In this document: piece by piece, positions 388-34,063 of the stretch
How the letters are laid out: each line of letters begins with the position of its first letter
Numbering within the stretch: the stretch's first letter is position 1
Assembly (NCBI GenBank): GCA_022868165.1
Contig: JALHYA010000004.1
Coordinates: forward strand, 83,432 to 147,431
DNA length: 64,000 bases
Direction of reading: 5' to 3'
DNA from: Patescibacteria group bacterium
GTDB lineage: Bacteria > Patescibacteriota > Microgenomatia > UBA8517
Notes under the pieces: model-generated
What the model saw: the letters and a program-made list of their open reading frames with translations, nothing else
Databases searched by the model: none
Told to the model about the DNA's origin: nothing
Made by a program: the position numbers and the translations under genes

Positions 388-1428
388 ATGGAAGACGAGG
401 CAAAGAAGAACAAAAAAGATTTTGGTTGGGGACCAAAGACAATACTTATTGTCTTTATTCTTCTATTCTCCTACTTCATTTATTTTTCTATAAACAACCT
501 TTGGGTTAAAAGTGGAAAAGTCAATTACCTTGCACTTGTTGATGATTTTATTCTTACCCCCGCAAGCCAAATAGCCGCTGTCAATGGGAGAACCAACATT
601 CTTGTAATGGGCAAGGCTGGAAAGGGACAAACGGCTCCCGACTTGACGGACACGATTATGGTTGTCTCCATTTCGCATTCGAAACCGGCGATTTCATCTG
701 TTTCTTTTTCCCGCGATATTTGGATTCCCGAGATAAGGGCAAAAATAAATAGCGCCTATTATTGGGGAAACCAGAAATCCCTTCGCGGAGGACTTAATTT
801 GGCTAAAGAAACCGTAGGAAAAATTTTGGGACTTCCCATTCAATATGCTGTGGTAGTGGATTTTTCGAGCTTCAAAGATATTATCGATGTTTTGGGCGGA
901 ATAAACGTTAATGTTGAAAAATCTTTTACGGATACCCAGTTTCCTATTGTCGGCAAAGAAAATGACACATGCGGAGGAGATCCGCAGTTCAAATGCCGAT
1001 ACGAAACAATTCACTTCGACAAGGGAATGCAATTTATGGATGGCGACACCGCTCTGAAGTTTGTTCGTTCAAGAATGGCAAAAGGCGATGAAGGAACGGA
1101 TTTTGCAAGGGAGAAAAGACAGCAGGAAGTAATGGAGGCGATAAAAGAAAAGGTAATGAATACCCAAACGCTTTTGAATCCGACAAAACTCTGGGGTTTG
1201 TGGCAAGTAGCATCGAAAAATCTGGAAACAGACGTTCCACTCCCGGCAGGGGCAATTTTAGCCAGACGGGTAGTTGATGCAAGGGGTAAAGTCGCGTCTT
1301 TTGTTATTCCCGAGGAACTTTTGTATAACCCGCCGATTTCGGCAAGATACGATTTTCAATATGTTTTTATTCCGAAGGCCGGGGACTGGAGTAAAGTGCA
1401 GGACTTCATACAAAAAGCGCTTCCCTAG
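388..1428 (+). CDS. LytR-CpsA-Psr (LCP) family cell-envelope phosphotransferase with N-terminal TM anchor
   Basis: N-terminal TM segment followed by the LCP core: NILVMGKAGKG...DTIMVVSISH...IQYAVVVDFSSFKDIIDVLGGINVNV...HFDKGMQFMDGDTALKFVRSR. Confidence 0.8.
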   Translation: MEDEAKKNKKDFGWGPKTILIVFILLFSYFIYFSINNLWVKSGKVNYLALVDDFILTPASQIAAVNGRTNILVMGKAGKGQTAPDLTDTIMVVSISHSKPAISSVSFSRDIWIPEIRAKINSAYYWGNQKSLRGGLNLAKETVGKILGLPIQYAVVVDFSSFKDIIDVLGGINVNVEKSFTDTQFPIVGKENDTCGGDPQFKCRYETIHFDKGMQFMDGDTALKFVRSRMAKGDEGTDFAREKRQQEVMEAIKEKVMNTQTLLNPTKLWGLWQVASKNLETDVPLPAGAILARRVVDARGKVASFVIPEELLYNPPISARYDFQYVFIPKAGDWSKVQDFIQKALP

Positions 1429-1431
1429 AGA

Positions 1432-2571
1432 TTAAAAGGCCCACTGTCCTGTTACATAAGACAATGTGAGGTAAGAAAGAAGAATTGTCGATATAAATAT
1501 CCAGACGGTATAGACAATTTTATTTTTCGTTAAGTGCGTAAGAAAAATAAAAAACGGAGGAATAGACAGAAGGTAGCGCGGGGTACTCAAGATAAAACTT
1601 GTCGAGGAGAGGAAGATAACCCCCAGAAGGTAATAAACAAAATAGGATTTGCGCAGTTTTTTATAGGCATAGGGGATTAATAACCACAGCAAAGTTGCGG
1701 AAACCGCTTCGGCCCAGCCAATCATCACTCTAAAAAATATTGTTCCGCTTCCCAGTGCGATTCGCCAGCTATCGGCTATTGATTGCCAGGGGAATGCAAA
1801 ATGTTTTTGCCAGTTGTTGACCAAAATTCTTTGAAAGGCCAGAGCGTTGCCATAAATTTTTTGATTGATAACCAAATAGATTATTATGGCAATTAAAGTG
1901 GGAAGAAAAATCGCCGCAAACTGCCAAACTTTTTTGTTTTTTTCCTTTCGCCAATCAAAAAATATCGCAGGGGCAAATAAGATTCCGAAGGGCCGAGTCA
2001 ATACTGCCAGTCCGCTAAAAAATCCCGAAAGTCCCCAATTGCTTTTTCTTCCAAAGTAGAAGGACAAAGCAAAAAGAAGAATAAATAGAGACTCTGTATA
2101 TGGAGCTCCAAAAAAATATGAAGTTGGGAAAATCAATAGAAGAATCAAAAACCTTTCAACAAATTTTTCCTCATAATCTAAGCGTAAGAGTTTATACAAA
2201 AAAATGCATGCGAGTGCAAAGGAGGCTGTCGAAATTAATATTCCCACGGCTTCCGCGTTTTTTACGAAATTAAAAAGCGCCAAGATAAGTGGATAAAGGG
2301 GCATAAAAACAATAAAATTTGCAGGGTCGCCAACATTGGTATAACCATGAGTTACCAAATAAAGATAATGGGGCGCATCCCAATAGTTCCAGGAGTAACC
2401 CTTTCCGGGTAGAAGAAGTACCTGAACGAGCATTGGAACAAGAATGAGTGCTATTCTAGAAATAATGAGCAGAATTAAAAATTTCTTTAAGAACGAATTC
2501 ATGATGTTCTTTCTTATTCTACTGACTTTTGCAGTTAAATTTGTACTCTCATATCTTCCGAGCTTTGACAT
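1432..2571 (-). CDS. Polytopic membrane protein, GT-C fold glycosyltransferase-like (DUF2029/GT87-like mannosyltransferase family)
   Basis: 379 aa, about 10 predicted TM helices, aromatic-rich loops (FFGAPYTESLFILLFALSFYF) typical of GT-C lipid-linked sugar transferases. An alternative start MNSFLKK at 2502 would abut the divergent gene. Confidence 0.5.
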   Translation of the reverse strand: MSKLGRYESTNLTAKVSRIRKNIMNSFLKKFLILLIISRIALILVPMLVQVLLLPGKGYSWNYWDAPHYLYLVTHGYTNVGDPANFIVFMPLYPLILALFNFVKNAEAVGILISTASFALACIFLYKLLRLDYEEKFVERFLILLLIFPTSYFFGAPYTESLFILLFALSFYFGRKSNWGLSGFFSGLAVLTRPFGILFAPAIFFDWRKEKNKKVWQFAAIFLPTLIAIIIYLVINQKIYGNALAFQRILVNNWQKHFAFPWQSIADSWRIALGSGTIFFRVMIGWAEAVSATLLWLLIPYAYKKLRKSYFVYYLLGVIFLSSTSFILSTPRYLLSIPPFFIFLTHLTKNKIVYTVWIFISTILLSYLTLSYVTGQWAF

Positions 2572-4957
2572 AGATATGGGAACATGGATTGCATGGGCTC
2601 ATAGGCTTGCCGAAATAGGCCCCTGGAAATTTTACAGCGATGCTGTTTGGACTCAATACACTCCGGGATTTTTGTATTGGCTTTGGCTTTTAGGAAAGGC
2701 GGGGCTTGCGAATGCGCTTTCCATAAAATTGCCGGTCGTGATTGCGGAAGTTGCAACGGGGGTAATCATTTGGTCGGTACTTAGAAAGGTCGATGAAAAG
2801 TTCGCTTCCCTGGCTCTTTTATTTTATGCCTTAAATCCTGCAATTATTTTTGACGGCTCCGTTTGGGGACAGGTAGACGGGATTTTGGCGCTGTTTTTGT
2901 TCTTGAGTGTTTACTTTTTGACCTTCAAAGAAAAGCCAATTTTATCTGGTCTTTTTTGGGGACTTGCATTTCTGGTTAAACCCCAATCCTTTGCAATCTT
3001 GCCAGCCATTATCTTTATTTTGGCAATAAAGTTTTCGGCGAGGCGGGTTGTCAAATTTGTTCTATCCTCCGGAGCAACAATTTTTCTTTTGGGGCTTCCT
3101 TTCTTTCCACAAAATCCTATTTTCGGACTTGTCCAACTGGTTTTTGAGATGAGTTCCTATTATTCTTACACTTCTGTTTTTGCCTTTAATTTCTGGTCAA
3201 TTGTCGTAGGAATGTGGAAGTCGGATTCGATAATTTTTTTGGGAGTCCCCCTTTTCTTCTGGGGAATTTCTTTATACCTTGCATCCTTGGTATTGATATT
3301 TTTTGTTTTTAGAAAGAAAAGGGAAGTCGGGTATCTTTATTTGGTAACTGCACTTACCCTATTTGCATTTTTTCTTTTTCCGACCAGGGTTCACGAAAGA
3401 TACCTTCTTCCGATTTTTCCGTTTCTTTTAACCGCGGCAGGACTTCTTAAATCAAAAAAGCTTACTTGGGCGTTTATCGGAGTTTCCGTCTTGAGTCTTG
3501 CTAATCTTTACCACCCTTACGCCTATTACTCAAAGAATTACTTAGTAAGTAGCGGTCTTTTGCAATTTAGCGGAAATTTTGCTCCCTTTATCGGTGCGGC
3601 ATTTTTGGTTTTGTTTTTCGGTATGATATTTGATTGGAGATTGCCCGAAATAAAAATGAAATTTCCAAAATATTCCTCAAGGTTCTGGCTTTTTATAATT
3701 GTCGGCTTTGCACTGCTTACGAGAATTTTATTTTTGGGAAGTCCACAGAGCGAATATTTCGATGAGGTTTATCACGCCTTTACCGCAAGACAAATTCTTC
3801 ACGGGAACAAAATGGCTTGGGAATGGTGGAATGTTCCTCCCAAGGGTTTTGCCTATGAGTGGACCCACCCGCCATTGGCAAAACTCGGGATGGTTTTGGG
3901 AATGCTTATTTTTGGAGAAAACTCTTTCGGCTGGAGAATTCCCGGAGCGCTTTTGGGAGTGGGGAGTGTTTATCTTGTTTATTTGATTGCCAAAAAATTA
4001 TTCGACGATGAAAAAATTGCTCTTTTGTCGGCAGGAGTTTTTGCGCTTGATGGATTGCCGCTTGTGATGTCAAGAATAGGAATGAACGACAGTTATATTT
4101 TGTTTTTTGCCCTTGCCTCAATCTATCTCTTCATGGAACAAAAAAATCTTTTTTCGGCAATTGCTTTCGGACTTGCGCTTTCTTCCAAATGGTCGGCCCT
4201 TTGGGCGATACCAATCTTGGGACTTCTGTATTTGCAACGAAAAGATAACATCTTCCGCGGATTAAAATCCGCGGCTTTGTCCCTAAGGAAAGATGTTGAT
4301 ACAGCTTCAATTCATCCCCTCGACTTCGCTCGGGGTTTTCTTGAAGCTTTTAATAAATTCGAGAAAGGTTTACTCTGGTTTATTGTATTAGTTCCTGCGG
4401 TTTATCTGGCAATCTATGTACCATTCTTTTTGTCGGGACACGGATGGCCCACCTTTATCGAACTTCAAAAACAAATGTGGTGGTATCACACAAGGCTTAA
4501 GGCAACTCATCCTTATACATCTACATGGTGGGAATGGCCATTTCTCGTCCGTCCGATTTATTTGTATACAAGCGGTTACGCAAAGGGAGTTGTTGCAAAT
4601 ATTTATGCGATGGGAAATCCCGCGGTATTTTGGGGAGGCTTGGCTGCAGTAGTTTGGGGAATTTACTATGCATACGTAAATAAAATTAAAAGTCTCGGCC
4701 TGGTAATTTTTTCCTACTTGGTATTTTTTGTTCCTTGGGCGCTTTCTCCGAGAATAATGTTTCTCTATCACTATCTCCCGTCGATTCCTTTTTTGGCAAT
4801 TGCCACGGGATATTTTCTTAAAAGGACACCAAAAGCGATTATTCCCTTCTTCCTTATCGCAGGAATTTTGTTTATCTATTTCTTCCCGCACTGGACGGGA
4901 ATGACGATTCCGCAAAGTTTGGACTCTTTATACTATTGGTTCCCATCATGGCGGTGA
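2444..4957 (+). CDS. Large polytopic membrane glycosyltransferase: N-terminal GT-C/DUF2029-like module fused to a C-terminal PMT/ArnT-like (GT39/GT83) module
   Basis: 837 aa. The C-terminal half (FGSPQSEYFDEVYHAFTARQIL...WTHPPLAKLGMVLGMLIFGENSFGWRIPGALLG...) matches the dolichyl-phosphate-mannose/undecaprenyl-phosphate-sugar-dependent glycosyltransferase family. The N-terminal half is a second GT-C-like TM bundle. A start at ATG 2501 (MMFFLILL) is equally plausible. Confidence 0.6.
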   Translation: MSAILEIMSRIKNFFKNEFMMFFLILLTFAVKFVLSYLPSFDIDMGTWIAWAHRLAEIGPWKFYSDAVWTQYTPGFLYWLWLLGKAGLANALSIKLPVVIAEVATGVIIWSVLRKVDEKFASLALLFYALNPAIIFDGSVWGQVDGILALFLFLSVYFLTFKEKPILSGLFWGLAFLVKPQSFAILPAIIFILAIKFSARRVVKFVLSSGATIFLLGLPFFPQNPIFGLVQLVFEMSSYYSYTSVFAFNFWSIVVGMWKSDSIIFLGVPLFFWGISLYLASLVLIFFVFRKKREVGYLYLVTALTLFAFFLFPTRVHERYLLPIFPFLLTAAGLLKSKKLTWAFIGVSVLSLANLYHPYAYYSKNYLVSSGLLQFSGNFAPFIGAAFLVLFFGMIFDWRLPEIKMKFPKYSSRFWLFIIVGFALLTRILFLGSPQSEYFDEVYHAFTARQILHGNKMAWEWWNVPPKGFAYEWTHPPLAKLGMVLGMLIFGENSFGWRIPGALLGVGSVYLVYLIAKKLFDDEKIALLSAGVFALDGLPLVMSRIGMNDSYILFFALASIYLFMEQKNLFSAIAFGLALSSKWSALWAIPILGLLYLQRKDNIFRGLKSAALSLRKDVDTASIHPLDFARGFLEAFNKFEKGLLWFIVLVPAVYLAIYVPFFLSGHGWPTFIELQKQMWWYHTRLKATHPYTSTWWEWPFLVRPIYLYTSGYAKGVVANIYAMGNPAVFWGGLAAVVWGIYYAYVNKIKSLGLVIFSYLVFFVPWALSPRIMFLYHYLPSIPFLAIATGYFLKRTPKAIIPFFLIAGILFIYFFPHWTGMTIPQSLDSLYYWFPSWR

Positions 4958-4979: not shown

Positions 4980-5420
4980 TTAAAGCGCTAATACCGCGGA
5001 GACAATAAGGAGAAGAATTCCCGCTCCAATTCCTATGACTGTCGGTAAAGATGTTCCCGAGCTTGGAAGTTGAGGGGCGGGTGTAGGTGTTGGCGCCAAA
5101 GGAGTCGCTGTTGAAGCAGGAGTTGCGGTTGGTGTGGCGCTTGGTGTGGGAGTTGCGGTGCCCGAAGGCGTAGGTGTTGGAGTTCCGCTAGGAGTTTCAG
5201 TCGGTGTTGGTGTCGGCGTTGCCGCAGAAATTGTAAATGTCAAAGCACTGCAGGCAATAGGGGCAGCAGCCGCCGGCTTCGAAGTAGGAACATTAGGTGC
5301 AACAGTGGTCTGCCTTAGTTGGTAGAGTCTAATTGCCGTAAATATCGCAATACCTGCCAACCCGACCGTTGCTATCAGGATTATTACCGTTACTATTCTT
5401 TTTCTAAAGAAATCCCTCAT
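4980..5420 (-). CDS. Small bitopic surface protein: N-terminal signal-anchor, Pro/Thr-rich stalk, C-terminal hydrophobic segment after LPSSG
   Basis: MRDFFRKRIVTVIILIATVGLAGIAIF... then (TP)n-rich linker ... QLPSSGTSLPTVIGIGAGILLLIVSAVLAL. Last gene of the minus-strand operon 9752->4980. Confidence 0.5.
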   Translation of the reverse strand: MRDFFRKRIVTVIILIATVGLAGIAIFTAIRLYQLRQTTVAPNVPTSKPAAAAPIACSALTFTISAATPTPTPTETPSGTPTPTPSGTATPTPSATPTATPASTATPLAPTPTPAPQLPSSGTSLPTVIGIGAGILLLIVSAVLAL

Positions 5421-5440
5421 TTTTTATTTTTATTTACTCC

Positions 5441-5470
5441 AGCTTCTAATCTCTAACTTCCAACTTCCAA
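5441..5470. repeat. Copy of the dispersed intergenic motif (AGCTTCTAATCTCTAACTTCCAACTTCCAA) between two surface-protein genes
   Basis: Reverse complement GGAAGTTGGAAGTTAGAGATTAGAAGCT. Matches the copies at 17955-17980 and 20636-20680. Confidence 0.5.
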
Positions 5471-5471
5471 A

Positions 5472-6842
5472 CTAGAACCAACCTAAAACCGTATTGTGTA
5501 ATTGGGCTCCGACAGTAAAGCTTGAGACTCCTTCGGGAATCGTATATTCATCATAATATTCTTCCGTTCCTGGTTTTTTCTGGGTAACCTCGGACCTATC
5601 GACTCCGTTTATTTTAAATTTGGCTTTATCATTTGTGCCCGTTGTGGCGGTCCCGCCGATTGCGAACCTCACAATATCTCCGACTTTAAGAGTGGAAAGT
5701 TTATCGGCGGTTAATAGCGTCCAGCTGGAATCGAATGCTTGGACGGCCAGACACTGAGCGGATTCTTCTCCTCCCGGGGGAGGTGTTGGAGTTTCTGTTA
5801 TTGTTCCCCCTCCGGTTCCTGTACACTGATAACACCAGTTTGGAATTGTAGCGGTTCCCGCATTAACTATAGTTGCATTTTCGCATATTCGGTTGGCGGT
5901 CGGCGTTTCTCTGACTCCGCAAACTCCCTCGCAAGCCTCTTCCGCAGCATCACGATTGCTTCCTCCGGAGGTATATCCAGTCGGACAAAGTTGGGTAGTT
6001 GTGGTAGAAACACATTCATTTGCCCAACAGCGCTCTCCTGTTGCGCATGCTCTTCCGCAGGAACCGCAGTTGCGGCTGTCGTAGCGGGGGTCGACACAAC
6101 TTCCGTTGCATACGATTTGTCCTGTCTGACAGGTAGTAGTTGCCGTTGCAGTTGGACTGGGTGAGGCAACTCTAGGCAGACAATTGTTGGCAGACCAATA
6201 ACAATCAGACCTGGCTTGACAGACAGAAATACCCAGTCCCAGACAGTTGGGTTGCGCTGTAGACGTAGGTATTGGAGTGGCTGTGGCTGTTGGACAGCCC
6301 GCCCTGCACTCCGTGGCGCTGTTACCTCTACAAAGACAGTTATTATAGCAACTGCCGCTGTTACAATCGATACAACATCCAATATTTTGGCCAGCGGGGG
6401 AAACACATCCTCCACTACTGGTACCCTTAAACGTTTTATTGGCTAGAGTGCATGCTCCGCCGGTGGTACATGTTCCAGTTTGACCACTAACAGTACATGA
6501 CTGACCGGGCCCCGCGGCTTTTTCCCTTATATCCTGTTGTTGTTGCACAAGGACTACTCCTGCTCCCAGACCTCCCACCAAAACGAGGATTCCCAAAATT
6601 GTTGCGACCATACGGCGACTTACTCTGCCTTTCGGTTTTGATGGAGTGATTACGGGAGGAATTCCGAGTCCTTGTAAATCACCAACCGGGCCTGCTCCGC
6701 CGGTCGGTTCGGGAGGCGACGGGGGAACATCGGAATCCATCGACGGCAAAGTTGGAGGAGCAGGTTCGGTTGGAGGAGTTTCACCAAAGATAGGTGTGAC
6801 CGGGACTGGTTTTATTGCGTTCGGGTCAGAATTATCGGGCAT
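5472..6842 (-). CDS. Cysteine-rich extracellular protein with Pro-rich cytoplasmic N-tail and a single TM anchor
   Basis: About 110 aa Pro-rich N-terminus, TM segment RRMVATILGILVLVGGLGAGVVLVQQQQ, then an ectodomain of about 330 aa with about 45 Cys in CxxC / NCGSCG / CxxGxxC arrays (e.g. CQTGQIVCNGSCVDPRYDSRNCGSCGRAC). Overlaps the upstream gene by 11 nt. Confidence 0.5.
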   Translation of the reverse strand: MPDNSDPNAIKPVPVTPIFGETPPTEPAPPTLPSMDSDVPPSPPEPTGGAGPVGDLQGLGIPPVITPSKPKGRVSRRMVATILGILVLVGGLGAGVVLVQQQQDIREKAAGPGQSCTVSGQTGTCTTGGACTLANKTFKGTSSGGCVSPAGQNIGCCIDCNSGSCYNNCLCRGNSATECRAGCPTATATPIPTSTAQPNCLGLGISVCQARSDCYWSANNCLPRVASPSPTATATTTCQTGQIVCNGSCVDPRYDSRNCGSCGRACATGERCWANECVSTTTTQLCPTGYTSGGSNRDAAEEACEGVCGVRETPTANRICENATIVNAGTATIPNWCYQCTGTGGGTITETPTPPPGGEESAQCLAVQAFDSSWTLLTADKLSTLKVGDIVRFAIGGTATTGTNDKAKFKINGVDRSEVTQKKPGTEEYYDEYTIPEGVSSFTVGAQLHNTVLGWF

Positions 6843-8190
6843 ATTTGAAAATAAAGAAACTTAGGCCCAAAAAGCCTATACCCATCATAGAAAGAAGCAG
6901 AGTTGGAGTCAAGCTGCCAGTCTGAGGAATTCCTGAGGCAGTTGAGATTGGAGTAGTAGTTGGCGCAAGCGTCGGCGTTGCCGAGACGGTAGAAGTAGGA
7001 GTTGGAGTAATTATTGGCGTCGGAGTCGGCGTCGGAGTCGGGGAAGGTGTGGTCGATGCAGACGGAGTGGAAACGAAAGCCGGTCCTTCCGCTGCTTGAA
7101 CGACAAATGTTCTTGTTAAAGTCCTTAAGATTCCGGAAGCATCGGTCCAGCTGATGGTTATAGTGTGGCTTCCGGCAGGAAGATTGGATGGTGGATCCCA
7201 AACCCAGTTGCCGCTGGCATCGACAATTGCTGTTCCGGTCACTGCTTCCGATTGAACCGTGATTGTAAGTTTCGTTCTGGGCGGTCCTTCTCCAAAAAAT
7301 TCCGGCTTGGTGCTGGTAACAATTTCCCCGCTGGAAACGCTTTTTAGCGTGACCGTTTGCGCCGATGGGGTTGCGATTTGCGAAGGAACATTAAATCCGG
7401 AAGACGGGGTGGATTCGTTGGGAAGTCCGACGTTTGCCGAAGGAACTTCGCTTGAATTGGAAGGAGGAAGGCTTGTAAAATCATGGGTTTTCCCAATAGT
7501 CATGGCAGGTGCCGGCTTTGCGGATTGAGGATAAATTTGAGCGCTTGAGGTGTTGCCCAGTCCGGCATCAACCGATATTTCGACCAAGGTTTTTGTATCG
7601 TCTATCACAATGTAATTTGTAAGGTCCGCCGTCCTTGCGGCAGATATTGGAACTACCCAATTTCCGTTTTGGGAAGTAAATGTCGAAAGAAGACTTCCTC
7701 CACTTACCGTTACATAAACTAAAGCATTTTGCACAGGGTTTCCGTCGTCACCCAAAACAGTTCCTGAAATTGTGTCCGCTTGTGTTGAAGCGGCAAGGGA
7801 AGGACCGGTTGATGTTTGCCAAGGGGAGCCGCTATCGTCATAAACCGTTCCGCTTGAATTTATTTTGAAAAAAATTGTTTGTCCTGCCGAAAGACCGTTT
7901 ATGGTTACGCGATGTGTAATGTTGGTTCCCACCAGTTCGTCGTTCTCGTTTCTGGATATTGTGCCTTGGGAGGTTCCCCAAAAGACAAAGCTTTCCGTTT
8001 TAGTGTCTGTTACCCAAGAAACCGCAAGAGATGTATCGCTAATATTGGATATCTTTACGTTTTTGGGTGCGGTATCTCCGGTTGCTCCCAATTTGAAAAT
8101 TTGCCTATATTGCACCAAAAATACTCCTGCGGCGAGGCCGATTATTAAAATTATTACCCCGATTATTGTCGGAATTCTACTTGGTTTCAT
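6832..8190 (-). CDS. Sortase-anchored cell-surface protein (FN3-like, CarboxypepD_reg-like and Ig-like beta domains; C-terminal IPQTG sorting signal)
   Basis: N-terminal signal/anchor MKPSRIPTIIGVIILIIGLAAGVFLVQ. Beta-rich domains (DTSLAVSWVTDTKTESFVFWG; ISGTVLGDDGNPVQNALVYVTVSGG; TKLTITVQSEAVTGTAIVDASGNWVW). PT-rich stalk. C-terminus ...STASGIPQTGSLTPTLLLSMMGIGFLGLSFFIFKYAR, i.e. an LPXTG-type motif, hydrophobic span and basic tail. ATGA overlap with the upstream gene. Confidence 0.6.
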   Translation of the reverse strand: MKPSRIPTIIGVIILIIGLAAGVFLVQYRQIFKLGATGDTAPKNVKISNISDTSLAVSWVTDTKTESFVFWGTSQGTISRNENDELVGTNITHRVTINGLSAGQTIFFKINSSGTVYDDSGSPWQTSTGPSLAASTQADTISGTVLGDDGNPVQNALVYVTVSGGSLLSTFTSQNGNWVVPISAARTADLTNYIVIDDTKTLVEISVDAGLGNTSSAQIYPQSAKPAPAMTIGKTHDFTSLPPSNSSEVPSANVGLPNESTPSSGFNVPSQIATPSAQTVTLKSVSSGEIVTSTKPEFFGEGPPRTKLTITVQSEAVTGTAIVDASGNWVWDPPSNLPAGSHTITISWTDASGILRTLTRTFVVQAAEGPAFVSTPSASTTPSPTPTPTPTPIITPTPTSTVSATPTLAPTTTPISTASGIPQTGSLTPTLLLSMMGIGFLGLSFFIFKYAR

Positions 8191-8537
8191 GGTGTTGGTG
8201 TAGCGCTTGCCGTTGCTGTTGGTGTTGCACTGGGACTTGCGGAAGGAGTCGGGGTAATGGTTGGAGATGGGGTTGGAGTTGTAGTTGCGGACGGCGTTGC
8301 TCCCGTAATCTTGGTCCCCCCAATTTCACCTTCGGATAAAAATGTTCTTGATTGAATCTTGGAAAGGGAATCGGTGTCGAGAGTAGGAGTTAAGGCCTGC
8401 AGAATATCTTCAGGAACGCTAGGAGAAGGTTTGGTTGTAAATGCTCTATAAGCGGTGAAAAATACCCAAAAGACAAGCGTTATTGCGGTCAAAACTGCGA
8501 TTGTAACTAAACTTGGGACTCTAGATTTTTTCTTCAT
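8187..8537 (-). CDS. Small membrane-anchored Pro/Thr-rich protein
   Basis: MKKKSRVPSLVTIAVLTAITLVFWVFF anchor followed by a T/P/S/A-rich low-complexity tail. 3-nt gap from the PilO-like gene; ATGA overlap with the next gene. Confidence 0.45.
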   Translation of the reverse strand: MKKKSRVPSLVTIAVLTAITLVFWVFFTAYRAFTTKPSPSVPEDILQALTPTLDTDSLSKIQSRTFLSEGEIGGTKITGATPSATTTPTPSPTITPTPSASPSATPTATASATPTP

Positions 8538-8540
8538 GAT

Positions 8541-9194
8541 TTAATTAGGGTAATAAGGAACTCTCCCCGAAATTACCAGCACCAAAGTTTTTCCGCCTTG
8601 GGTTTTGGAAGAGCTTATATTAAACACATCAATCTTTATAGGCCTTCTTAGGTTTTCGATGTTTGTCATAAACGCAGTCAGAGAAGAATAGTCGCCCTCA
8701 ATACTTACCGAGAAGGAAACTTCTTTTGCTCCCTCCGGAAGGGGAGCAAAATCGCTTTGTTTTACGGCCTCTTGCGACTTGCCCACAAGTGTTACGTCGC
8801 CGATTGAAACCCCAAGAAGTTTTGCGGAGGTTTTTTTGGAGATTCCTTCTATTTGTCGGGCAAACGTATCCGGGCTCGGGTCCGTTGGTACCGCATCGGG
8901 GACTAATAAAATAGTTGTCGGGTTGGCGTTAAAAAGACCCTCGGCCGTCTGAATATCGTTAATTTTTTGATTCATCTGGCTTATGGTTTGTTCGCGGCTT
9001 TTAAGCTGATTAATCAAATCGATAATTGTGAGAAGCGTCGGTTTTATGGCAAAAACTACGAAAATCGAAATAGTTGCTGCGGAAAGCAATATCTCCAAAA
9101 ACATCTTTACATCCTGTTTTTGTTTATAGACATTAACGATGTTTAGGAAATAATCCCTGTAGCGAAGATATGCCCCACGCCAACCGAGTGCCAT
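8541..9194 (-). CDS. pilO: Type IV pilus assembly protein PilO-like
   Basis: N-terminal TM, coiled-coil region, C-terminal segment SFSVSIEGDYSSLTAFMTNIENLRRPIKIDVFNIS resembling the conserved PilO core (SLSGSYHDLATFVSGVSSLPRIV...). Sits directly downstream of the PilN-like gene (9194/9195). Confidence 0.6.
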   Translation of the reverse strand: MALGWRGAYLRYRDYFLNIVNVYKQKQDVKMFLEILLSAATISIFVVFAIKPTLLTIIDLINQLKSREQTISQMNQKINDIQTAEGLFNANPTTILLVPDAVPTDPSPDTFARQIEGISKKTSAKLLGVSIGDVTLVGKSQEAVKQSDFAPLPEGAKEVSFSVSIEGDYSSLTAFMTNIENLRRPIKIDVFNISSSKTQGGKTLVLVISGRVPYYPN

Positions 9195-9752
9195 TTAAAG
9201 TTGTACTCCTTTCGGCCCCAAGATTATTTTGAGATTAAATTCAATCAAAGAACTTTCGCTTTGTGTTTCGGCCTGAGTAAGGGTTACGCTTTTGAAACTT
9301 TTTTCCGAAGAGAGATTGGTAATAAATTGCCCTACTTCTACCTCGGTTGGAGCGACTCCTTTAATTTGGATTGTGTCGTTGGATAGGGTAACGGCCGTAA
9401 GAATTACACTACTGGGTTGGTATTGGGTTATCGTGTTAAGGATATCGGTTGCGGCAGGCTGTGAGGAAAGTGAAGAAAATATTTTGAGCTGTTTTTGGAT
9501 TAAGCGGAACTGTTTTTCAAAATCGCTGGTTGCGGCAAGAACCGCCTGTTTTGTTTTAATCTCGTCATCCAAATCGCTTCTTCTTGAGTCAAGCCAAAAG
9601 CGGGACAAGAAAGCAATCATGACAATCATTTCGGTTGCGATAACGAGAATTCTAAATGTGGAAAGAAGCCACTTAAAAATTCGTCCGAAAGTTGATGCTT
9701 CGAACTCCTCCTGTGGTAATAAATTTATCTGGCGCTGTTTTTGGGCAGCCAT
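9195..9752 (-). CDS. pilN: Type IV pilus assembly protein PilN-like
   Basis: Begins MAAQKQRQINLLPQEEFE... with the hallmark PilN INLLP motif, followed by a single TM (FRILVIATEMIVMIAFL) and a periplasmic alpha/beta domain. Confidence 0.65.
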   Translation of the reverse strand: MAAQKQRQINLLPQEEFEASTFGRIFKWLLSTFRILVIATEMIVMIAFLSRFWLDSRRSDLDDEIKTKQAVLAATSDFEKQFRLIQKQLKIFSSLSSQPAATDILNTITQYQPSSVILTAVTLSNDTIQIKGVAPTEVEVGQFITNLSSEKSFKSVTLTQAETQSESSLIEFNLKIILGPKGVQL

Positions 9753-9757
9753 ACAAG

Positions 9758-9783
9758 CTAAGCGCTATTTAGCCAAGCGCTAA
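9758..9783. repeat. Two copies of AAGCGCTA (AGCGCT palindromic core) immediately upstream of the pilN-like start
   Basis: ctAAGCGCTAtttagccAAGCGCTAAcc at 9758-9783. A third near-copy AAAGCGCTAAT sits at the stop of gene 4980..5420 (about 4981-4993). Candidate operator. Confidence 0.3.
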
Positions 9784-9824
9784 CCTCAATATAGCACAAG
9801 TAAAAGAGTGAAAGAAGCTCGCAA

Positions 9825-10118
9825 TTATTTTTTCTTGGGAGTTTTTTTAGGAGCCTTTTTGACTTTCGGCATTAGTTTTGTCAGAGAACTTTTAATTCTT
9901 GCGGCTTTATTTTTGTGGATGGCCTTTTTCTTTGCGGCCTTATCCGCCAACGAAACGGCCGCGATAATATCTTTTGAAGACTTGCTCTTTTTCGCACGGC
10001 GCACAGCGACTTCCAATTTTGTAACCGTAATTTTATTAATGGAAGCCTTTTTCTTGGAACCTCTGAGCGCCCTTTTGGCCGTTTTAGTTACAGGCATGGC
10101 GAGAGTATAATCGAACAA
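9825..10118 (-). CDS. rpsT: 30S ribosomal protein S20 (bS20) with Lys-rich C-terminal extension
   Basis: ...AAVSLADKAAKKKAIHKNKAARIKSSLTKL matches the bS20 signature (IHKNKAARHK...L). The start may be the internal Met (MPVTKTAKR..., about 10097). Confidence 0.75.
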   Translation of the reverse strand: MFDYTLAMPVTKTAKRALRGSKKKASINKITVTKLEVAVRRAKKSKSSKDIIAAVSLADKAAKKKAIHKNKAARIKSSLTKLMPKVKKAPKKTPKKK

Positions 10119-10133
10119 GATTGAAATTTCAAC

Positions 10134-31205: not shown

Positions 31206-33377
31206 ATGGATTTAAAGAGCATTTTAGGTGGCCGCGAAGAAAAAAGCAGAGAGCTCTACTGGGCTTTGGTAATTGAACCCTCTTGGATTCAAGCTGGTAT
31301 TTGGGAAATTGTTGCCGGTAAAGCAAACGTAACTTCAATCAGTCCCTCCGCGGCTTGGGAAACCGAAGAGGAAATGATTGCCGCTGCGGATACCGCCCTA
31401 TCGGCTTCTGTTCAAAGCCTTCCCGAAGAAGCCCCCGAGCCTTCAAAGACGGTTTTTGGCGTTGCCTCCCTATGGGTTGCCAATGGACAGATTAAAGATG
31501 AATATCTTTCAAAAATCAGGAAAATCTGTGCGGAACTTTCTCTCCAACCTGTTGGTTTTGTCGTAATTCCGGAAGCGGTTGCCCATCTTGTCAAATCCGA
31601 AGAATCCACCCCCCTAAACGGGATAGTTGTAGGCATCGGGGCTGAAGAACTGGAGCTTTCCCTCTTTAGATTGGGAAACCTGATAGGAACAACGCAGGTT
31701 TCAAGAAGTGTTTCTTTGGCAGAGGATGTTACCGAAGGGCTTACCCGCTTTAACCAAACGGAGCCTCTTCCTTCAAGAATTTTGATTTATGACGGTAAAG
31801 AAGGAGAGTTGGAGGACGAAAGGCAAAGCCTGATAAAAACAAATTGGGAAGATTTCGAGAAGCTTAAATTTTTGCATACTCCAAAAGTTGAAGTCTTGGA
31901 GCCGGATAGAAAGGTTCTGGCAACATCATTGGCTGGAGCATCGGAGATTGCTAATGTTTCTGCGGTCGAAAGCCCGAAAGTAGAACGCTTTACCGGGGAG
32001 GACGAAACCCAGGAAGACGTAGAAAACGTAAAGGCTCCGGAAAAAGAAGTTACCGCAGAGGAGCTGGGGTTTGTGGTTGGACAGGATGTCAGAACAAACC
32101 AAGAAGTGCCGCAGCCAGTTGCCCCAACTTTACCCCCGAAGGAAATTCCTCGTCCTGCCGCAAGCGTTCGTCATCTCAAGCCGCCCGCCATATTAGGTTT
32201 TTTTAAGAAAATCCATTTGCCGAAATTCCGGTTGCCGATTTTGGGAACTCAGCCATTTATTGTCGCCGGAATTTTCCTTGGTCTTCTTTTTATTGCAGGT
32301 TTTATCTATTGGTGGACCGTTCCAACTGCCGACGTAACAATCTTTGTTTCTCCCAAGAAATTGAATGAGAATGTTTCGATGAAAATTTCCACCAGTGTGA
32401 CCAATCCGGATATAAACGCCAAGGTTCTTCCCGGCAAAGTTTTGACGACTGATGTTTCGGGAGATAAGACAATCCAAACGACCGGCACAAAGGTGATTGG
32501 GGACAAGGCAAAGGGCTCGGTGAATATAAGAAACGGAACTGCATCTGCCTTGGATCTTCCGGCCGGAACCGTAATTTACGGAACAAACGATCTTCAGTAC
32601 ACCCTGGATCAAGAAGCTTCGGTTTCGGCACAAATTTCCCCGGGTACCCCCGGCACAGCGACCGTTAACGTGACTGCTTCGGATATCGGCACTCAATATA
32701 ATTTGGATAAGGACGTGTCTTTTAAGGTTTCAAATTATCCGCAGTCAGTGGTCGATGCCGTTTCGACCGCAACATTCGCCGGGGGTTCGAGCCGTGATAT
32801 TTCTTCGGTTTCCGAAGACGACCAAAAAAATTTGGAGAAAACGCTTACCGATGAACTTTTGGATAAGGCTAAAGATAAACTGTCCAAATTGGTTGACCAA
32901 GGAATGTATTTTGTTGGCGACGGCCTTGTTTTAACAGAAGTATCGAAAGATTTCAGCAACAAAGTTGGAGACGAGGCCTCAAATCTTAAACTTTCGCTTT
33001 CCCTTAGTGTCCAGGGTTTGGAGGTAGATAAAAAAGCATATGTGGAATTGGCCAAATCCGCTCTTTCCGCGAAAGCTCCCTCGGGGTTTGTTTTAAGGGA
33101 AGACCAAATAAAAGGAAATTTCGATTTCAAGAAAAAAGACGGCAACACTTATTTTTTCGACATAGCATTTAGCGCCAACTTGCTTCCACAAATAAACACG
33201 GCGGATATCACAAAGAACATTGTTGGGAGGCAGCAATCCGTTGCGGAAACCTATCTTACCAGTATTCCCGGCTTCTCGCGGGTTGATATTAATCTAAAAC
33301 CCCGTCTGCCGGGAAGACTCGGAAGCCTTCCGAGAATAGAAAAGCATATTCATATCACTATTGACTCCGAACGATGA
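31206..33377 (+). CDS. Large bitopic membrane protein: cytoplasmic domain with faint actin-like (PilM/FtsA-like, degenerate) features, one TM, large extracytoplasmic beta-rich domain
   Basis: About 340-aa N-terminal domain (ELYWALVIEPSWIQAGIWEIV...; VVGIGAEELELSLFRLGNLIGTT... reminiscent of actin-fold phosphate motifs but degenerate), TM FIVAGIFLGLLFIAGFIYWW, about 350-aa exported domain. 4-nt overlap with the downstream sortase gene. Confidence 0.4.
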   Translation: MDLKSILGGREEKSRELYWALVIEPSWIQAGIWEIVAGKANVTSISPSAAWETEEEMIAAADTALSASVQSLPEEAPEPSKTVFGVASLWVANGQIKDEYLSKIRKICAELSLQPVGFVVIPEAVAHLVKSEESTPLNGIVVGIGAEELELSLFRLGNLIGTTQVSRSVSLAEDVTEGLTRFNQTEPLPSRILIYDGKEGELEDERQSLIKTNWEDFEKLKFLHTPKVEVLEPDRKVLATSLAGASEIANVSAVESPKVERFTGEDETQEDVENVKAPEKEVTAEELGFVVGQDVRTNQEVPQPVAPTLPPKEIPRPAASVRHLKPPAILGFFKKIHLPKFRLPILGTQPFIVAGIFLGLLFIAGFIYWWTVPTADVTIFVSPKKLNENVSMKISTSVTNPDINAKVLPGKVLTTDVSGDKTIQTTGTKVIGDKAKGSVNIRNGTASALDLPAGTVIYGTNDLQYTLDQEASVSAQISPGTPGTATVNVTASDIGTQYNLDKDVSFKVSNYPQSVVDAVSTATFAGGSSRDISSVSEDDQKNLEKTLTDELLDKAKDKLSKLVDQGMYFVGDGLVLTEVSKDFSNKVGDEASNLKLSLSLSVQGLEVDKKAYVELAKSALSAKAPSGFVLREDQIKGNFDFKKKDGNTYFFDIAFSANLLPQINTADITKNIVGRQQSVAETYLTSIPGFSRVDINLKPRLPGRLGSLPRIEKHIHITIDSER

Positions 33378-34063
33378 AGAAAAAACTTCTTTCAAGAATT
33401 TTTGCGGGGGTATTGGGCATCTTCGGCTTGGCAATTTTAATTGCCATTATTGTTCCGCTTGCGAATTATCAAAGAATTTCTTCGCAGAAGTACCCGAAAC
33501 TTCTAAGTCCGATTCCGGATAAGGGTGGCTCTACCCTTGGGGAGGAAAGCGATTTAACTAAAGCCTCGAACTGGTTTGTTGGTGGGGCCAAAAGCGGAGA
33601 TTTTACCTCATCAAGTGTTTCTTTTTATACGATTTCAATTCCTAAACTAAAAATCGATTCGGCCTCTGTGGCCTTTGGAGGAGAAGATTTGTCCAAAAGT
33701 CTAATCCATTATCCGGGTACCGCGCTCCCTGGGCAAAAAGGCAATGCCGTAATTTTCGGCCACTCCGTTCTTCCTTTGTTTTTTGACCCTAAAGATTATT
33801 TAAAGATTTTTTCAACGCTGCCGAGCCTAAACAAGGGAGATGAAATTTTGGTTAATTATGACGGTGTTTCCTATAAATACCGCGTCGAAACAATGCAGGA
33901 AATTTTGCCGACCGATTTGCAGGTTTTGGATCAGGACAAAAGCGATTCATTTTTAACGTTGGTTACCTGCGTCCCGCCGGGAGACCCCAGAAAACCATTT
34001 AGACTAATCGTTCGTGCTAGAATAGTTCCACTTGCGCAGACAAATGCGAATACTTGGAATTGA
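33374..34063 (+). CDS. Sortase family transpeptidase (membrane-anchored)
   Basis: N-terminal TM. Catalytic His in AVIFGHS, TLxTC motif in FLTLVTC, conserved Arg in LIVRARI. Confidence 0.8.
   Translation: MKKKLLSRIFAGVLGIFGLAILIAIIVPLANYQRISSQKYPKLLSPIPDKGGSTLGEESDLTKASNWFVGGAKSGDFTSSSVSFYTISIPKLKIDSASVAFGGEDLSKSLIHYPGTALPGQKGNAVIFGHSVLPLFFDPKDYLKIFSTLPSLNKGDEILVNYDGVSYKYRVETMQEILPTDLQVLDQDKSDSFLTLVTCVPPGDPRKPFRLIVRARIVPLAQTNANTWN

What the first reader, a model, noticed from the sequence alone, without database searches (positions are those of the whole stretch)
4980..9752. PilN/PilO-like pair co-operonic with four membrane-anchored Pro/Thr-rich surface proteins, including an IPQTG sortase substrate and a ~45-Cys protein
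Six minus-strand genes are tightly packed, with ATGA or 11-nt overlaps and 0-3-nt gaps. The first carries the INLLP PilN hallmark and the second the PilO core. The next four, which sit where pilP/pilQ would follow pilO in the classic pilMNOPQ order, share an N-terminal signal-anchor and PT-rich stalks. One ends in IPQTG + TM + KYAR, a textbook sortase signal. One is extremely Cys-rich with a 110-aa Pro-rich cytoplasmic tail. No pilM, pilin (G|FTLIE) or secretin is present. This could be an uncharacterised coupling of T4P-type alignment proteins with sortase-dependent surface appendage or adhesin proteins, plausibly for host or episymbiont attachment in a CPR-like organism.
Basis: partly seen in the sequence, partly recalled or inferred. 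Interest (0 to 1): 0.6.

Follow-up and report, generated by a model that had tools for sequence, protein, structure and literature searches.

The report
PilN/PilO operon with four envelope proteins
A candidate-phylum (Microgenomates/Woesebacteria) bacterium carries a conserved six-gene operon joining two type IV pilus platform proteins (PilN, PilO) to four uncharacterised membrane- or wall-anchored surface proteins, which may show how a single-membrane cell ties its pilus machine to the cell wall.

Summary
Six tightly packed minus-strand genes (4980-9752) encode a genuine PilN, a genuine PilO and four bitopic Pro/Thr-rich proteins (p3-p6). The Cys-rich protein has 31 Cys, not about 45, and its cytoplasmic tail is about 76 aa, not 110. 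A second sorting-signal protein (p6, LPSSG+TM), a sortase gene at 33374-34063 and an adjacent protein O-mannosyltransferase were missed.

The linkage is not fortuitous. In 46 related genomes with enough flank, 39 keep pilN-pilO-p3-p4-p5-p6 in order, with conserved start/stop overlaps. In the reverse test, 51 of 52 metagenomic p4 homologues sit directly behind pilN-pilO-p3. The cassette extends to Chisholmbacteria, where PilN is 31% identical.

PilM, pilins, PilB/PilC and sortase are never nearby. PilN nevertheless keeps its invariant PilM-binding INLLP motif. p3 and p4 are as conserved as PilN/PilO, whereas the p5/p6 stalks are hypervariable.

Best reading (about 0.45): a lineage-specific envelope module of the type IV pilus platform, partly sortase-linked to peptidoglycan and probably O-glycosylated, filling the role of PilP/PilQ/TsaP in diderms. 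Rivals are co-regulated adhesins or a repurposed PilNO scaffold. It is a new variant of a known kind, of moderate interest.

The parts
9195..9752 (-). pilN (185 aa): cytoplasmic N-terminus with INLLP (residues 9-13, nt 9714-9728), one TM/coiled-coil helix and a ferredoxin-like ectodomain
   Evidence: PF05137 at 44.7 bits. N10/L11/L12/P13 are invariant in 20 homologues (that alignment's numbering is offset by -1). The AF2 model has pLDDT 82, with a helix at 20-95 plus an alpha-beta-beta-alpha-beta-beta domain. Foldseek top hits are the T4aP machine PilO, the EpsL/PulL/XcpY ectodomains and T. thermophilus PilN.
8541..9194 (-). pilO (217 aa): TM + coiled coil + PilO core; it starts directly after the pilN stop codon
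   Evidence: PF04350 at 23.4 bits against a cut-off of 22. Family profile A2 hits 3jc8 PilO at 1.1e-8, plus 2rjz and 5uvr. 36 of 56 members hit PF04350, best E=6e-13.
8187..8537 (-). p3 (116 aa): N-in bitopic protein with a conserved TM, a ~45-aa juxtamembrane ectodomain (VPxEIxxPLxPTLD...) and a variable Pro/Thr tail. It occupies the gene position of pilP.
   Evidence: Present after pilO in 45 of 46 loci. The median pilO-p3 junction is -4 nt, with 38 of 59 overlapping. It is retained in the most distant loci, L062, L064 and L065. No Pfam or PDB relative was found.
6832..8190 (-). p4 (452 aa): conserved Gly-rich N-terminal TM, FN3 domain (~41-130), prealbumin-like CarboxypepD_reg domain (~140-190), Ig-like Big_13 domain (~288-361), Pro/Thr stalk, and the sorting signal IPQTG + TM + KYAR (nt 6835-6930)
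   Evidence: The family alignment has 47% mean column identity, with the P and G of the motif (near-)invariant. xPx[TS]G + TM + 1-2 K/R occurs in 41 of 53 members. The N-terminal TM is as conserved as the folded domains.
5472..6842 (-). p5 (456 aa): ~76-aa Pro-rich cytoplasmic tail, TM (residues ~77-101, nt ~6540-6614), hypervariable Cys-rich (31 Cys)/Pro-Thr stalk, and a conserved C-terminal Ig/FN3-like domain (nt 5475-5789)
4980..5420 (-). p6 (146 aa): very conserved N-terminal TM + 'FTAIRLYQLRQxxVAPNVPxSxPxA', a variable Pro/Thr (Cys-rich in relatives) middle, and a C-terminal LPSSG + hydrophobic end with no basic tail (nt 4983-5069)
   Evidence: The alignment is. LPx[AS]G-type motif + TM with 0 K/R occurs in 47 of 48 members. 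p6 is present in 44 of 46 loci.
2444..4957 (+). Protein O-mannosyltransferase-like GT-C enzyme (837 aa), convergent with the operon (22-nt gap). It is the likely glycosylating enzyme for the Pro/Thr stalks (inferred).
   Evidence: PMT_2, PMT and PMT_4TMC hits. It is convergent in 36 of 46 loci. Where it is absent, other GT-C proteins (PMT_2, DUF2298) follow p6.
33374..34063 (+). Sortase (229 aa), the only sortase in the window and a candidate trans-acting enzyme for p4 and p6 (inferred)
   Evidence: PF04203 at 91 bits. It reaches TIGR01076 but no class-specific model. p4 and p6 are the only two LPXTG-like C-termini in the window.

Best explanation
The six genes form one operon that builds a lineage-specific (Microgenomates) envelope module of the type IV pilus (T4P) machine.

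Proposed roles:
- PilN and PilO form the usual membrane platform. PilN's cytoplasmic INLLP peptide docks a PilM that is encoded elsewhere.
- p3 is a third small bitopic subunit, in the gene position that pilP holds in diderms.
- p4 is a rigid FN3/Ig-type strut. Its conserved Gly-rich N-terminal helix is proposed to pack with the PilN/PilO/p3 helices, and its C-terminus is handed by the housekeeping sortase to peptidoglycan.
- p5 (membrane-anchored, with a conserved distal Ig-like domain) and p6 (sorting-signal-like C-terminus) carry fast-evolving Pro/Thr- and Cys-rich stalks. These pass through or decorate the wall around the pilus exit and are probably O-mannosylated by the adjacent PMT.

Together they would tie the pilus platform to the cell wall and carry it across the wall, which is the job done by PilP-PilQ/TsaP/FimV in diderms. 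Pelicic (2019) speculated that the C-terminal extension of monoderm PilO does the same.

Shown: gene identities, domain content, sorting signals, conserved operon structure, and conservation patterns.
Inferred: physical association, sortase linkage, glycosylation, and the link to an actual pilus.
For: PilN/PilO identity:
- Both are bona fide family members.
- INLLP is invariant in 20 homologues, so a PilM partner is still being selected for.

Operon conservation:
- Of 46 loci, pilO follows pilN in 46, p3 in 45, p4 in 43, p5 in 43 and p6 in 44; all five follow in 39.
- Median junctions are 2, -4, -4, 5 and 4 nt, against 63 nt for the upstream rpsT.
- The cassette is intact in Chisholmbacteria at 31% PilN identity. 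pilN-pilO-p3 plus an FN3 protein persists at 28-32% identity.
- Reverse test: 51 of 52 p4 homologues lie directly behind pilN-pilO-p3.

Conservation pattern:
- p3 and p4 evolve like machine parts. They are 81% and 77% identical in the nearest relative, against 71% and 72% for PilN and PilO. p4 has 47% mean column identity over its full length.
- The N-terminal TM helices of p4, p5 and p6 carry near-invariant Gly/Pro positions and are as conserved as the folded domains. This is unlike disposable signal peptides.

Sortase and glycosylation context:
- p4 has a canonical sorting signal conserved across the family, and p6 has a related one. A sortase is encoded in the window.
- Sortase is near-ubiquitous in Microgenomates (PMC6744442).
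- GT-C/PMT genes consistently flank the cassette.

Open question in the field:
- How monoderm T4P cross or anchor to peptidoglycan is unresolved, and an extra PilO domain has been proposed for it (PMC6916266).
Against: - There is no direct evidence that p3-p6 contact PilN/PilO.
- No PilM, PilB/T-type ATPase or pilin lies within 10 kb of the cassette in 65 genomes (1.07 Mb) or in the 64-kb window. I could not check whether these genomes have a T4P at all, or a second pilMNO set.
- The whole neighbourhood (hrcA, murJ, rpsT, cassette, PMT, LCP) is collinear in this clade, so part of the conserved order could be general synteny.
- p4 is missing or truncated in a few lineages.
- The p5/p6 stalks are hypervariable, as in adhesins.
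- p4's TIGR01167 score is just under its cut-off (14.9 against 15.9).
- p6 lacks the basic tail that classic sortase signals have.
- Whether the N-terminal helices are retained or cleaved was not determined.
Confidence: 0.45

Rival explanations
1. Co-regulated adhesin set. PilN/PilO serve an ordinary T4P, and p3-p6 are independent surface adhesins or wall glycoproteins. They would be transcribed with pilNO only so that pili and adhesins appear together for attachment to a host or partner cell, with no physical complex.
For: - p4 has adhesin-type domains (FN3, Big_13/SiiE-like Ig, Ca-tandemer-like repeat).
- The p5/p6 stalks are hypervariable in length and Cys content, and p5/p6 are duplicated or shuffled in some loci.
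- The C-terminal p5 domain is a generic Ig-like module.
- CPR T4P are implicated in episymbiosis (PMC9894109 and PMC11623550).
Against: - p3 and p4 are as conserved as PilN/PilO or more so, which is atypical for host-facing adhesins.
- The N-terminal helices and juxtamembrane motifs are strongly conserved.
- The overlapping start/stop codons are conserved.
- p4 was never found away from pilN-pilO-p3.
Confidence: 0.25
2. Repurposed scaffold. This PilN/PilO pair no longer works in a pilus. Instead it organises export, glycosylation or sortase-dependent wall attachment of p4-p6, as a dedicated surface-protein assembly platform or a T2SS-like conduit through the wall.
For: - The cassette always lies apart from every other T4P gene, among cell-envelope genes (murJ, PMT, LCP).
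- T4P proteins, including PilN and PilO, aid secretion of a matrix protein through the wall in C. perfringens (PMC11580942).
- 17 of 56 PilO-family members also touch the DivIC coiled-coil model.
Against: - The PilM-binding INLLP motif is invariant.
- PilN/PilO retain the canonical architecture.
- CPR genomes generally encode full T4P sets (PMC6744442).
- No sortase or secretion ATPase is linked to the cassette.
Confidence: 0.17
3. Sortase-dependent pilus. p4, perhaps with p6 as base or tip, is polymerised by sortase into a Gram-positive-type covalent pilus, and the PilNO adjacency is incidental to that.
For: - p4 and p6 have LPXTG-like signals.
- p4's second domain belongs to the prealbumin-like group that, from my own knowledge of Pfam clans, also includes CnaB/SpaA.
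- The window sortase scores best against the class C model, although far below its cut-off.
Against: - No Cna_B, SpaA, FctA or pilin-motif hits were found.
- The sortase reaches no class model (59 bits against a cut-off of 160). It is 24 kb away, and no sortase lies within 8-10 kb of the cassette in 145 loci, whereas pilus-specific sortases are normally clustered with their pilins.
- p4 has no Cys and no recognisable isopeptide domain.
Confidence: 0.06
4. Fortuitous adjacency preserved only by general genome collinearity.
For: Unrelated neighbours (hrcA-grpE-dnaK, murJ, rpsT) are also syntenic.
Against: - Junctions inside the cassette are overlaps or a few nt, while the junction to rpsT is about 63 nt.
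- Linkage survives to 28-31% PilN identity.
- The reverse test gave 51 of 52.
Confidence: 0.05

Closest known systems
T4aP alignment/assembly subcomplex PilM-PilN-PilO-PilP(-PilQ) of diderms (P. aeruginosa, M. xanthus; PDB 3jc8, 2rjz)
   Same: PilN and PilO are homologous, with the same TM/coiled-coil/ferredoxin-like build and the N-terminal INLLP motif. The genes are adjacent and followed by further envelope genes, in the order where pilP and pilQ would lie.
   Different: There is no adjacent pilM. p3 is not PilP: it has no lipobox Cys and no PilP domain. There is no secretin and no outer membrane. The downstream proteins are bitopic or sortase-type proteins found, as far as sampled, only in Microgenomates.
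Monoderm T4aP machines (S. sanguinis, Clostridium): PilM-PilN-PilO with an enlarged PilO (Pelicic 2019, PMC6916266)
   Same: Both are single-membrane envelopes and both need to cross or anchor in the wall. The extra function is proposed to be attached to PilO.
   Different: Here PilO is of canonical size (217 aa). The extra mass is supplied by four separate genes, two of which carry sortase signals. pilNO is detached from the rest of the T4P locus.
T2SS GspL-GspM-GspC inner-membrane platform
   Same: The PilN model superposes best on the GspL/EpsL/PulL/XcpY ectodomains (TM-score 0.71-0.78 on the target). A third bitopic partner (GspC) follows the pair.
   Different: There is no GspL cytoplasmic domain, and no HR/PDZ domain in p3. 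No secretin or pseudopilins are nearby.
LPXTG cell-wall-anchored surface proteins of Gram-positives (MSCRAMM-like; TIGR01167) and the A. oris SrtA/LCP glycoprotein GspA pathway
   Same: p4 has an N-terminal hydrophobic leader, Ig-like domains, a Pro/Thr wall-spanning region, and xPxTG + TM + basic tail. Sortase, LCP and a glycosyltransferase are encoded in the same window.
   Different: The motif is degenerate ([IVLT]Px[TS]G). The N-terminal helix is unusually conserved. The genes are operonic with pilNO. The p6 signal lacks the basic tail. Linkage and glycosylation are untested.
Actinobacterial Pmt-dependent O-mannosylation of Pro/Thr-rich secreted proteins
   Same: A PMT-family GT-C enzyme is encoded next to proteins with long (T/S)P repeats.
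   Different: The enzyme is 837 aa, with an extra N-terminal membrane half. No biochemical evidence exists, and the association rests on conserved adjacency only.

Membership tests
PilN (PF05137) | Profile match above the curated cut-off | tested here: met
   44.7 bits against 22.8, E=1.4e-11. All 120 listed homologues carry PF05137.
PilN (PF05137) | Short cytoplasmic N-terminus with the conserved INLLP PilM-binding motif | tested here: met
   QINLLPQ is at residues 8-14. N, L, L and P are invariant in 20 sequences.
PilN (PF05137) | Single TM/coiled-coil helix followed by a ferredoxin-like ectodomain | tested here: met
   The AF2 model has pLDDT 82. Foldseek hits are 3jc8, EpsL, PulL, XcpY and 4bhq PilN.
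PilN (PF05137) | A PilM partner, usually encoded immediately upstream | tested here: not met
   The upstream gene is rpsT. No PilM-like ORF was found in the window or seen in the flanks of 65 loci. Presence elsewhere in the genome could not be tested.
PilO (PF04350) | Profile match above the curated cut-off | tested here: met
   The single sequence is marginal (23.4 against 22). The family profile hits PilO structures 3jc8 (1.1e-8), 5uvr and 2rjz. 36 of 56 members hit PF04350, best E=6e-13.
PilO (PF04350) | Bitopic topology, adjacent to and co-transcribed with pilN | tested here: met
   One TM lies at about residues 28-62. The gap to pilN is 0 nt, and the median is 2 nt in 60 loci.
PilP / secretin module of the diderm T4aP | Lipoprotein PilP (lipobox Cys, PilP domain) and secretin PilQ downstream of pilO | tested here: not met
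   p3 has no Cys and no Pfam, NCBIfam or PDB match. No secretin is present in the window.
Type IV pilins / minor pilins | Class III signal peptide (G|F/M-x-x-x-E followed by a hydrophobic helix) | tested here: not met
   The motif is in no frame of the window and in none of 1175 ORFs in 65 loci. The p3-p6 N-termini lack it.
LPXTG sortase substrates (TIGR01167) | C-terminal LPXTG-like motif + hydrophobic segment + basic tail | tested here: met
   p4 has IPQTG + 23 hydrophobic residues + KYAR. The pattern is conserved in 41 of 53 homologues. The TIGR01167 score is 14.9 against a cut-off of 15.9, so the curated model is just missed.
LPXTG sortase substrates (TIGR01167) | The same tripartite signal in p6 | tested here: inconclusive
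   LPx[AS]G + hydrophobic end occurs in 47 of 48 members, but with no K/R tail in any. The segment after the motif (SL(T)PT...G.G) resembles that of p4.
LPXTG sortase substrates (TIGR01167) | A sortase encoded by the organism | tested here: met
   33374-34063: PF04203 at 91 bits and TIGR01076 at 59.3 bits against 39.35. Its class is unresolved.
LPXTG sortase substrates (TIGR01167) | Covalent attachment to peptidoglycan | not testable with these tools
   This needs biochemistry.
Sortase-dependent (Gram-positive) pilins | CnaA/CnaB-type isopeptide domains, pilin motif Lys, and a clustered class C sortase | tested here: not met
   No such Pfam or NCBIfam hits were found. The class C model scores 59 bits against a cut-off of 160. 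No sortase lies near the cassette in 145 loci.
Pmt O-mannosylation substrates | Ser/Thr-Pro-rich secreted segments modified by a PMT-family enzyme | not testable with these tools
   Only the sequence context and the conserved adjacency of PMT are shown (36 of 46 loci).

The most novel reading that the evidence does not exclude
A 'sortase-stapled' type IV pilus platform. p4 (and perhaps p6) would keep its conserved N-terminal helix inside the PilN/PilO/p3 membrane complex while sortase covalently links its C-terminus to peptidoglycan. This would give a monoderm cell a covalent stator and wall conduit for a retractile pilus. It would be a mechanistic answer, not described so far, to how single-membrane bacteria anchor T4P machines in the wall and pass pili through it.
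Probability: 0.15. Interest if true: 0.8.

Novelty: new variant of a known kind. Interest (0 to 1): 0.55.

Why it matters
Type IV pili are thought to be central to how CPR/Patescibacteria attach to and live on other cells. How any single-membrane bacterium gets a T4P through its wall and anchors it there is an acknowledged open question (PMC6916266).

This cassette offers a defined, widely conserved candidate set of four proteins for that role, in a major uncultivated lineage. It shows that PilN/PilO can be genetically uncoupled from PilM and the rest of the machine, yet tightly coupled to sortase-type wall proteins. It also assigns context to four families currently annotated as 'hypothetical' or 'Ig-like domain-containing'.

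If instead the pair has been repurposed, it would be an example of PilNO acting outside a pilus.

Tried and rejected
1. g723 (31206-33377, upstream of the sortase) as the missing PilM. By eye, its N-terminal 340 aa looked actin-like. A search of 1.84 billion representatives found a large family (1310 clusters). The family profile hits no PilM/FtsA/GspL structure, and members hit only Baseplate_J in the ectodomain.
3. p3 against PDB and Pfam: nothing found.
4. The L052 333-aa ORF upstream of pilN as PilM: by its sequence it is not PilM-like.
5. The afdb50 fold library was unavailable.
6. The full p4 alignment was too divergent for the metagenome scan, so a closer subset was used.
7. The single-sequence search with the p5 domain returned only 7 hits, so it was repeated with a profile.
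8. Walking off the window ends. The LCP protein is not on record. The right flank shows recA-recX-rny and no T4P genes.
9. The promoter/terminator scan gave nothing decisive inside the cluster. The best promoter-like site precedes rpsT.

Full report
**What is there.**
Six minus-strand ORFs occupy 4980-9752. They are separated by 0 nt, 3 nt, a 4-nt overlap, an 11-nt overlap and 51 nt.

- The first gene (9195-9752, 185 aa) matches Pfam PilN at 44.7 bits against a cut-off of 22.8. The second (8541-9194, 217 aa) matches PilO at 23.4 bits against 22.
- The marginal PilO call is firm at family level. A profile of 56 orthologues hits the M. xanthus and P. aeruginosa PilO structures (3jc8 at 1.1e-8; 5uvr; 2rjz), and 36 of 56 members hit PF04350, best E=6e-13.
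- An AlphaFold model of PilN (pLDDT 82) shows a long TM/coiled-coil helix followed by an alpha-beta-beta-alpha-beta-beta domain. Its best structural matches are the T4aP machine PilO, the GspL-type ectodomains (EpsL, PulL, XcpY) and T. thermophilus PilN.
- PilN carries QINLLPQ at residues 8-14. N, L, L and P are invariant in 20 homologues of 47-71% identity. Alignments A1-A4 lack Met1, so their numbering is one lower than the true numbering.

**The four downstream proteins.**

- p3 (116 aa) has one N-terminal TM, a conserved ectodomain of about 45 aa and a Pro/Thr tail. It has no relatives in Pfam, NCBIfam or the PDB.
- p4 (452 aa) has an N-terminal TM, an FN3/Pur_ac_phosph_N domain, a CarboxypepD_reg-type domain, a Big_13/SiiE-like Ig domain, a Pro/Thr stalk and IPQTG + hydrophobic segment + KYAR.
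- p6 (146 aa) has a strikingly conserved N-terminal TM plus 'FTAIRLYQLRQxxVAPNVPxSxPxA', a Pro/Thr middle, and LPSSG + a hydrophobic C-terminus.

p4 and p6 are the only LPXTG-like C-termini in the whole window. No class-III pilin signal occurs in any frame.

**Surroundings.**

- rpsT lies upstream on the same strand, 72 nt away. murJ and hrcA-grpE-dnaK diverge from it.
- Downstream, an 837-aa protein O-mannosyltransferase-like GT-C enzyme converges on the operon. It is followed by another putative glycosyltransferase and an LCP ligase.
- A sortase lies at 33374-34063 (PF04203, 91 bits). It overlaps the end of a 723-aa bitopic protein with a Baseplate_J-like ectodomain.
- The rest of the window is housekeeping: nusA, infB, pnp, rnj, ftsK, alaS, rpoBC, and the ribosomal operon with secY.
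- The record is an NCBI MAG, 'Patescibacteria group bacterium'. NCBI names the six products PilN domain-containing protein, type 4a pilus biogenesis protein PilO, hypothetical protein, Ig-like domain-containing protein, hypothetical protein and hypothetical protein.

**Is the linkage real?**

- A scan of 185,579 species genomes with a PilN profile gave 65 loci, all Woesebacteria, Microgenomates or unclassified Patescibacteria.
- Of 46 loci with at least 5.5 kb downstream, pilO follows in 46, p3 in 45, p4 in 43, p5 in 43 and p6 in 44. All five follow in order in 39. PMT converges in 36. Where PMT does not converge, other GT-C proteins (PMT_2, DUF2298) follow.
- Median junctions inside the cassette are 2, -4, -4, 5 and 4 nt, with many ATGA-type overlaps. 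The rpsT-pilN spacer has a median of 63 nt.
- A Chisholmbacteria locus with 31% PilN identity keeps the full cassette and the convergent PMT. Loci at 28-32% identity keep pilN-pilO-p3 plus an FN3 protein.
- In the reverse direction, a metagenome scan with p4 gave 80 loci. 51 of the 52 with at least 1.8 kb upstream have pilN-pilO-p3 directly upstream, and 62 of 63 have p3.
- Because unrelated neighbours are also syntenic in this clade, order alone is not proof of function. The conserved translational coupling and the two-way exclusivity argue for one functional unit.

**What is never there.**
No pilin-type leader and no PilB/PilT-type Walker box occurs in 1175 ORFs (1.07 Mb) flanking the cassette. 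No PilM-like ORF was seen. No sortase lies within 8-10 kb in 145 loci. The cassette is therefore systematically detached from the rest of any T4P locus and from its presumed sortase. In other CPR these T4P parts usually co-localise (PMC6744442; TM7x loci, PMC11623550).

**Conservation pattern.**

- In the nearest relative (PilN 71% identical), PilO is 72% identical, p3 81% and p4 77%.
- p5 is only 40% identical: its ends are conserved but its Cys-rich stalk is completely reshuffled. p6 is 59% identical, with an inserted Cys module.
- Across the family, p4 is constant in length (median 446 aa, no Cys). p5 ranges over 134-734 aa with 1-48 Cys, and p6 over 134-435 aa with 0-29 Cys.
- The N-terminal helix of p4 is as conserved (0.63) as its folded domains (0.56-0.66), with near-invariant Pro/Gly positions. 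p5 and p6 show the same pattern.
- Sorting motifs: p4 has [IVLT]Px[TS]G + TM + 1-2 basic residues (41 of 53). p6 has LPx[AS]G + TM with no basic tail (47 of 48).

**Interpretation.**

- The best-supported reading is that PilN/PilO, p3 and p4 are parts of one envelope complex belonging to a T4P machine whose PilM, ATPases and pilins are encoded elsewhere. p5 and p6 would add variable, probably O-glycosylated, wall-spanning or surface-exposed stalks. p4, and possibly p6, would be fixed to peptidoglycan by the housekeeping sortase.
- This would supply in trans the wall-crossing or wall-anchoring function that Pelicic proposed for the enlarged PilO of Firmicutes (PMC6916266). PilP/PilQ/TsaP provide that function in diderms.
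- Physical association, sortase linkage, glycosylation and the existence of the pilus are inferences.
- Three rivals remain. The four proteins could be co-regulated but independent adhesins. The PilNO pair could be a repurposed scaffold for surface-protein assembly; compare T4P-assisted secretion in C. perfringens (PMC11580942). p4 could form a sortase-dependent pilus, which is weakly supported. Pure chance adjacency is disfavoured.

**Novelty.**
The PilN/PilO identity is already annotated. The conserved coupling to four lineage-specific proteins, two of them with sortase signals, and the detachment from pilM, appear undescribed in the literature I could search. I rate it a new variant of a known kind, with moderate interest. 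It would rise sharply if covalent wall-stapling of a T4P platform were shown.

Noticed in passing
window 31206-34063 (+): A 723-aa bitopic protein has a ~340-aa cytoplasmic domain of unknown fold, a TM at 343-374 and a Baseplate_J-like ectodomain. It overlaps by 4 nt the start of the window's only sortase gene. Its N-terminal domain defines a large family (1310 clusters at 50% identity, mostly ~700-780 aa). A family profile finds no PilM/FtsA/GspL relative.
   Followed up: partly
window 388-4957: A cell-envelope glycosylation block sits next to the cassette: an 837-aa PMT-like GT-C enzyme whose PMT domains occupy only the C-terminal half, a 379-aa multi-TM putative glycosyltransferase (LA_3751/AZOBR_p60025-like) and an LCP ligase. 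PMT converges on the cassette in 36 of 46 related loci.
   Followed up: partly
L053:14662-14949, L008:14683-14949 and about 10 other loci; absent from the window: A small (~88-97 aa) two-TM ORF with a conserved 'YPF..F.P.SG.W' loop follows p6 in many relatives. It has no Pfam hit.
   Followed up: no
L012:12979-14412; L027, L010, L017, L028, L139: p5/p6 are modular and duplicated in some genomes. Chimeras carry the p6-type N-terminus with the p5-type C-terminal Ig-like domain, and there are tandem extra copies. This suggests domain shuffling within the cassette.
   Followed up: partly
window 6540-6680 (p5 residues ~55-101) and homologues: The cytoplasmic juxtamembrane segment of p5 ('..GSAAP..(D)IPPV(I/V)T..KKKFGGGK-IIATILGLLLLVGGIGAGV..LxQQQQ') is conserved across the family although the rest of the Pro-rich tail is not. 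This hints at a cytoplasmic binding partner.
   Followed up: no
alignment A2 (PilO family): 17 of 56 PilO-family members also match the DivIC/septum-formation-initiator model (best E=1e-5). This presumably reflects the shared TM + coiled-coil region.
   Followed up: no
window 9753-9824: The rpsT-pilN spacer contains a direct repeat of TAGCGCTT and a TATATT -10-like box. The best sigma-70-like promoter in the region lies upstream of rpsT (10104-10132). No convincing terminator was found inside the cluster.
   Followed up: no
window 15937-16674 and 19425-20270 (+): Two conserved-looking ORFs (245 aa and 281 aa) have no significant Pfam match; the 245-aa ORF has only a very weak transglutaminase-like hit. 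They sit between dnaJ/nusA and infB/pnp.
   Followed up: no
L148:10997-12712 (just beyond the right end of the window): recA-recX follow the ribosomal operon. In Saccharibacteria TM7x a recAX operon sits inside a T4P locus, but no T4P genes accompany it here.
   Followed up: no
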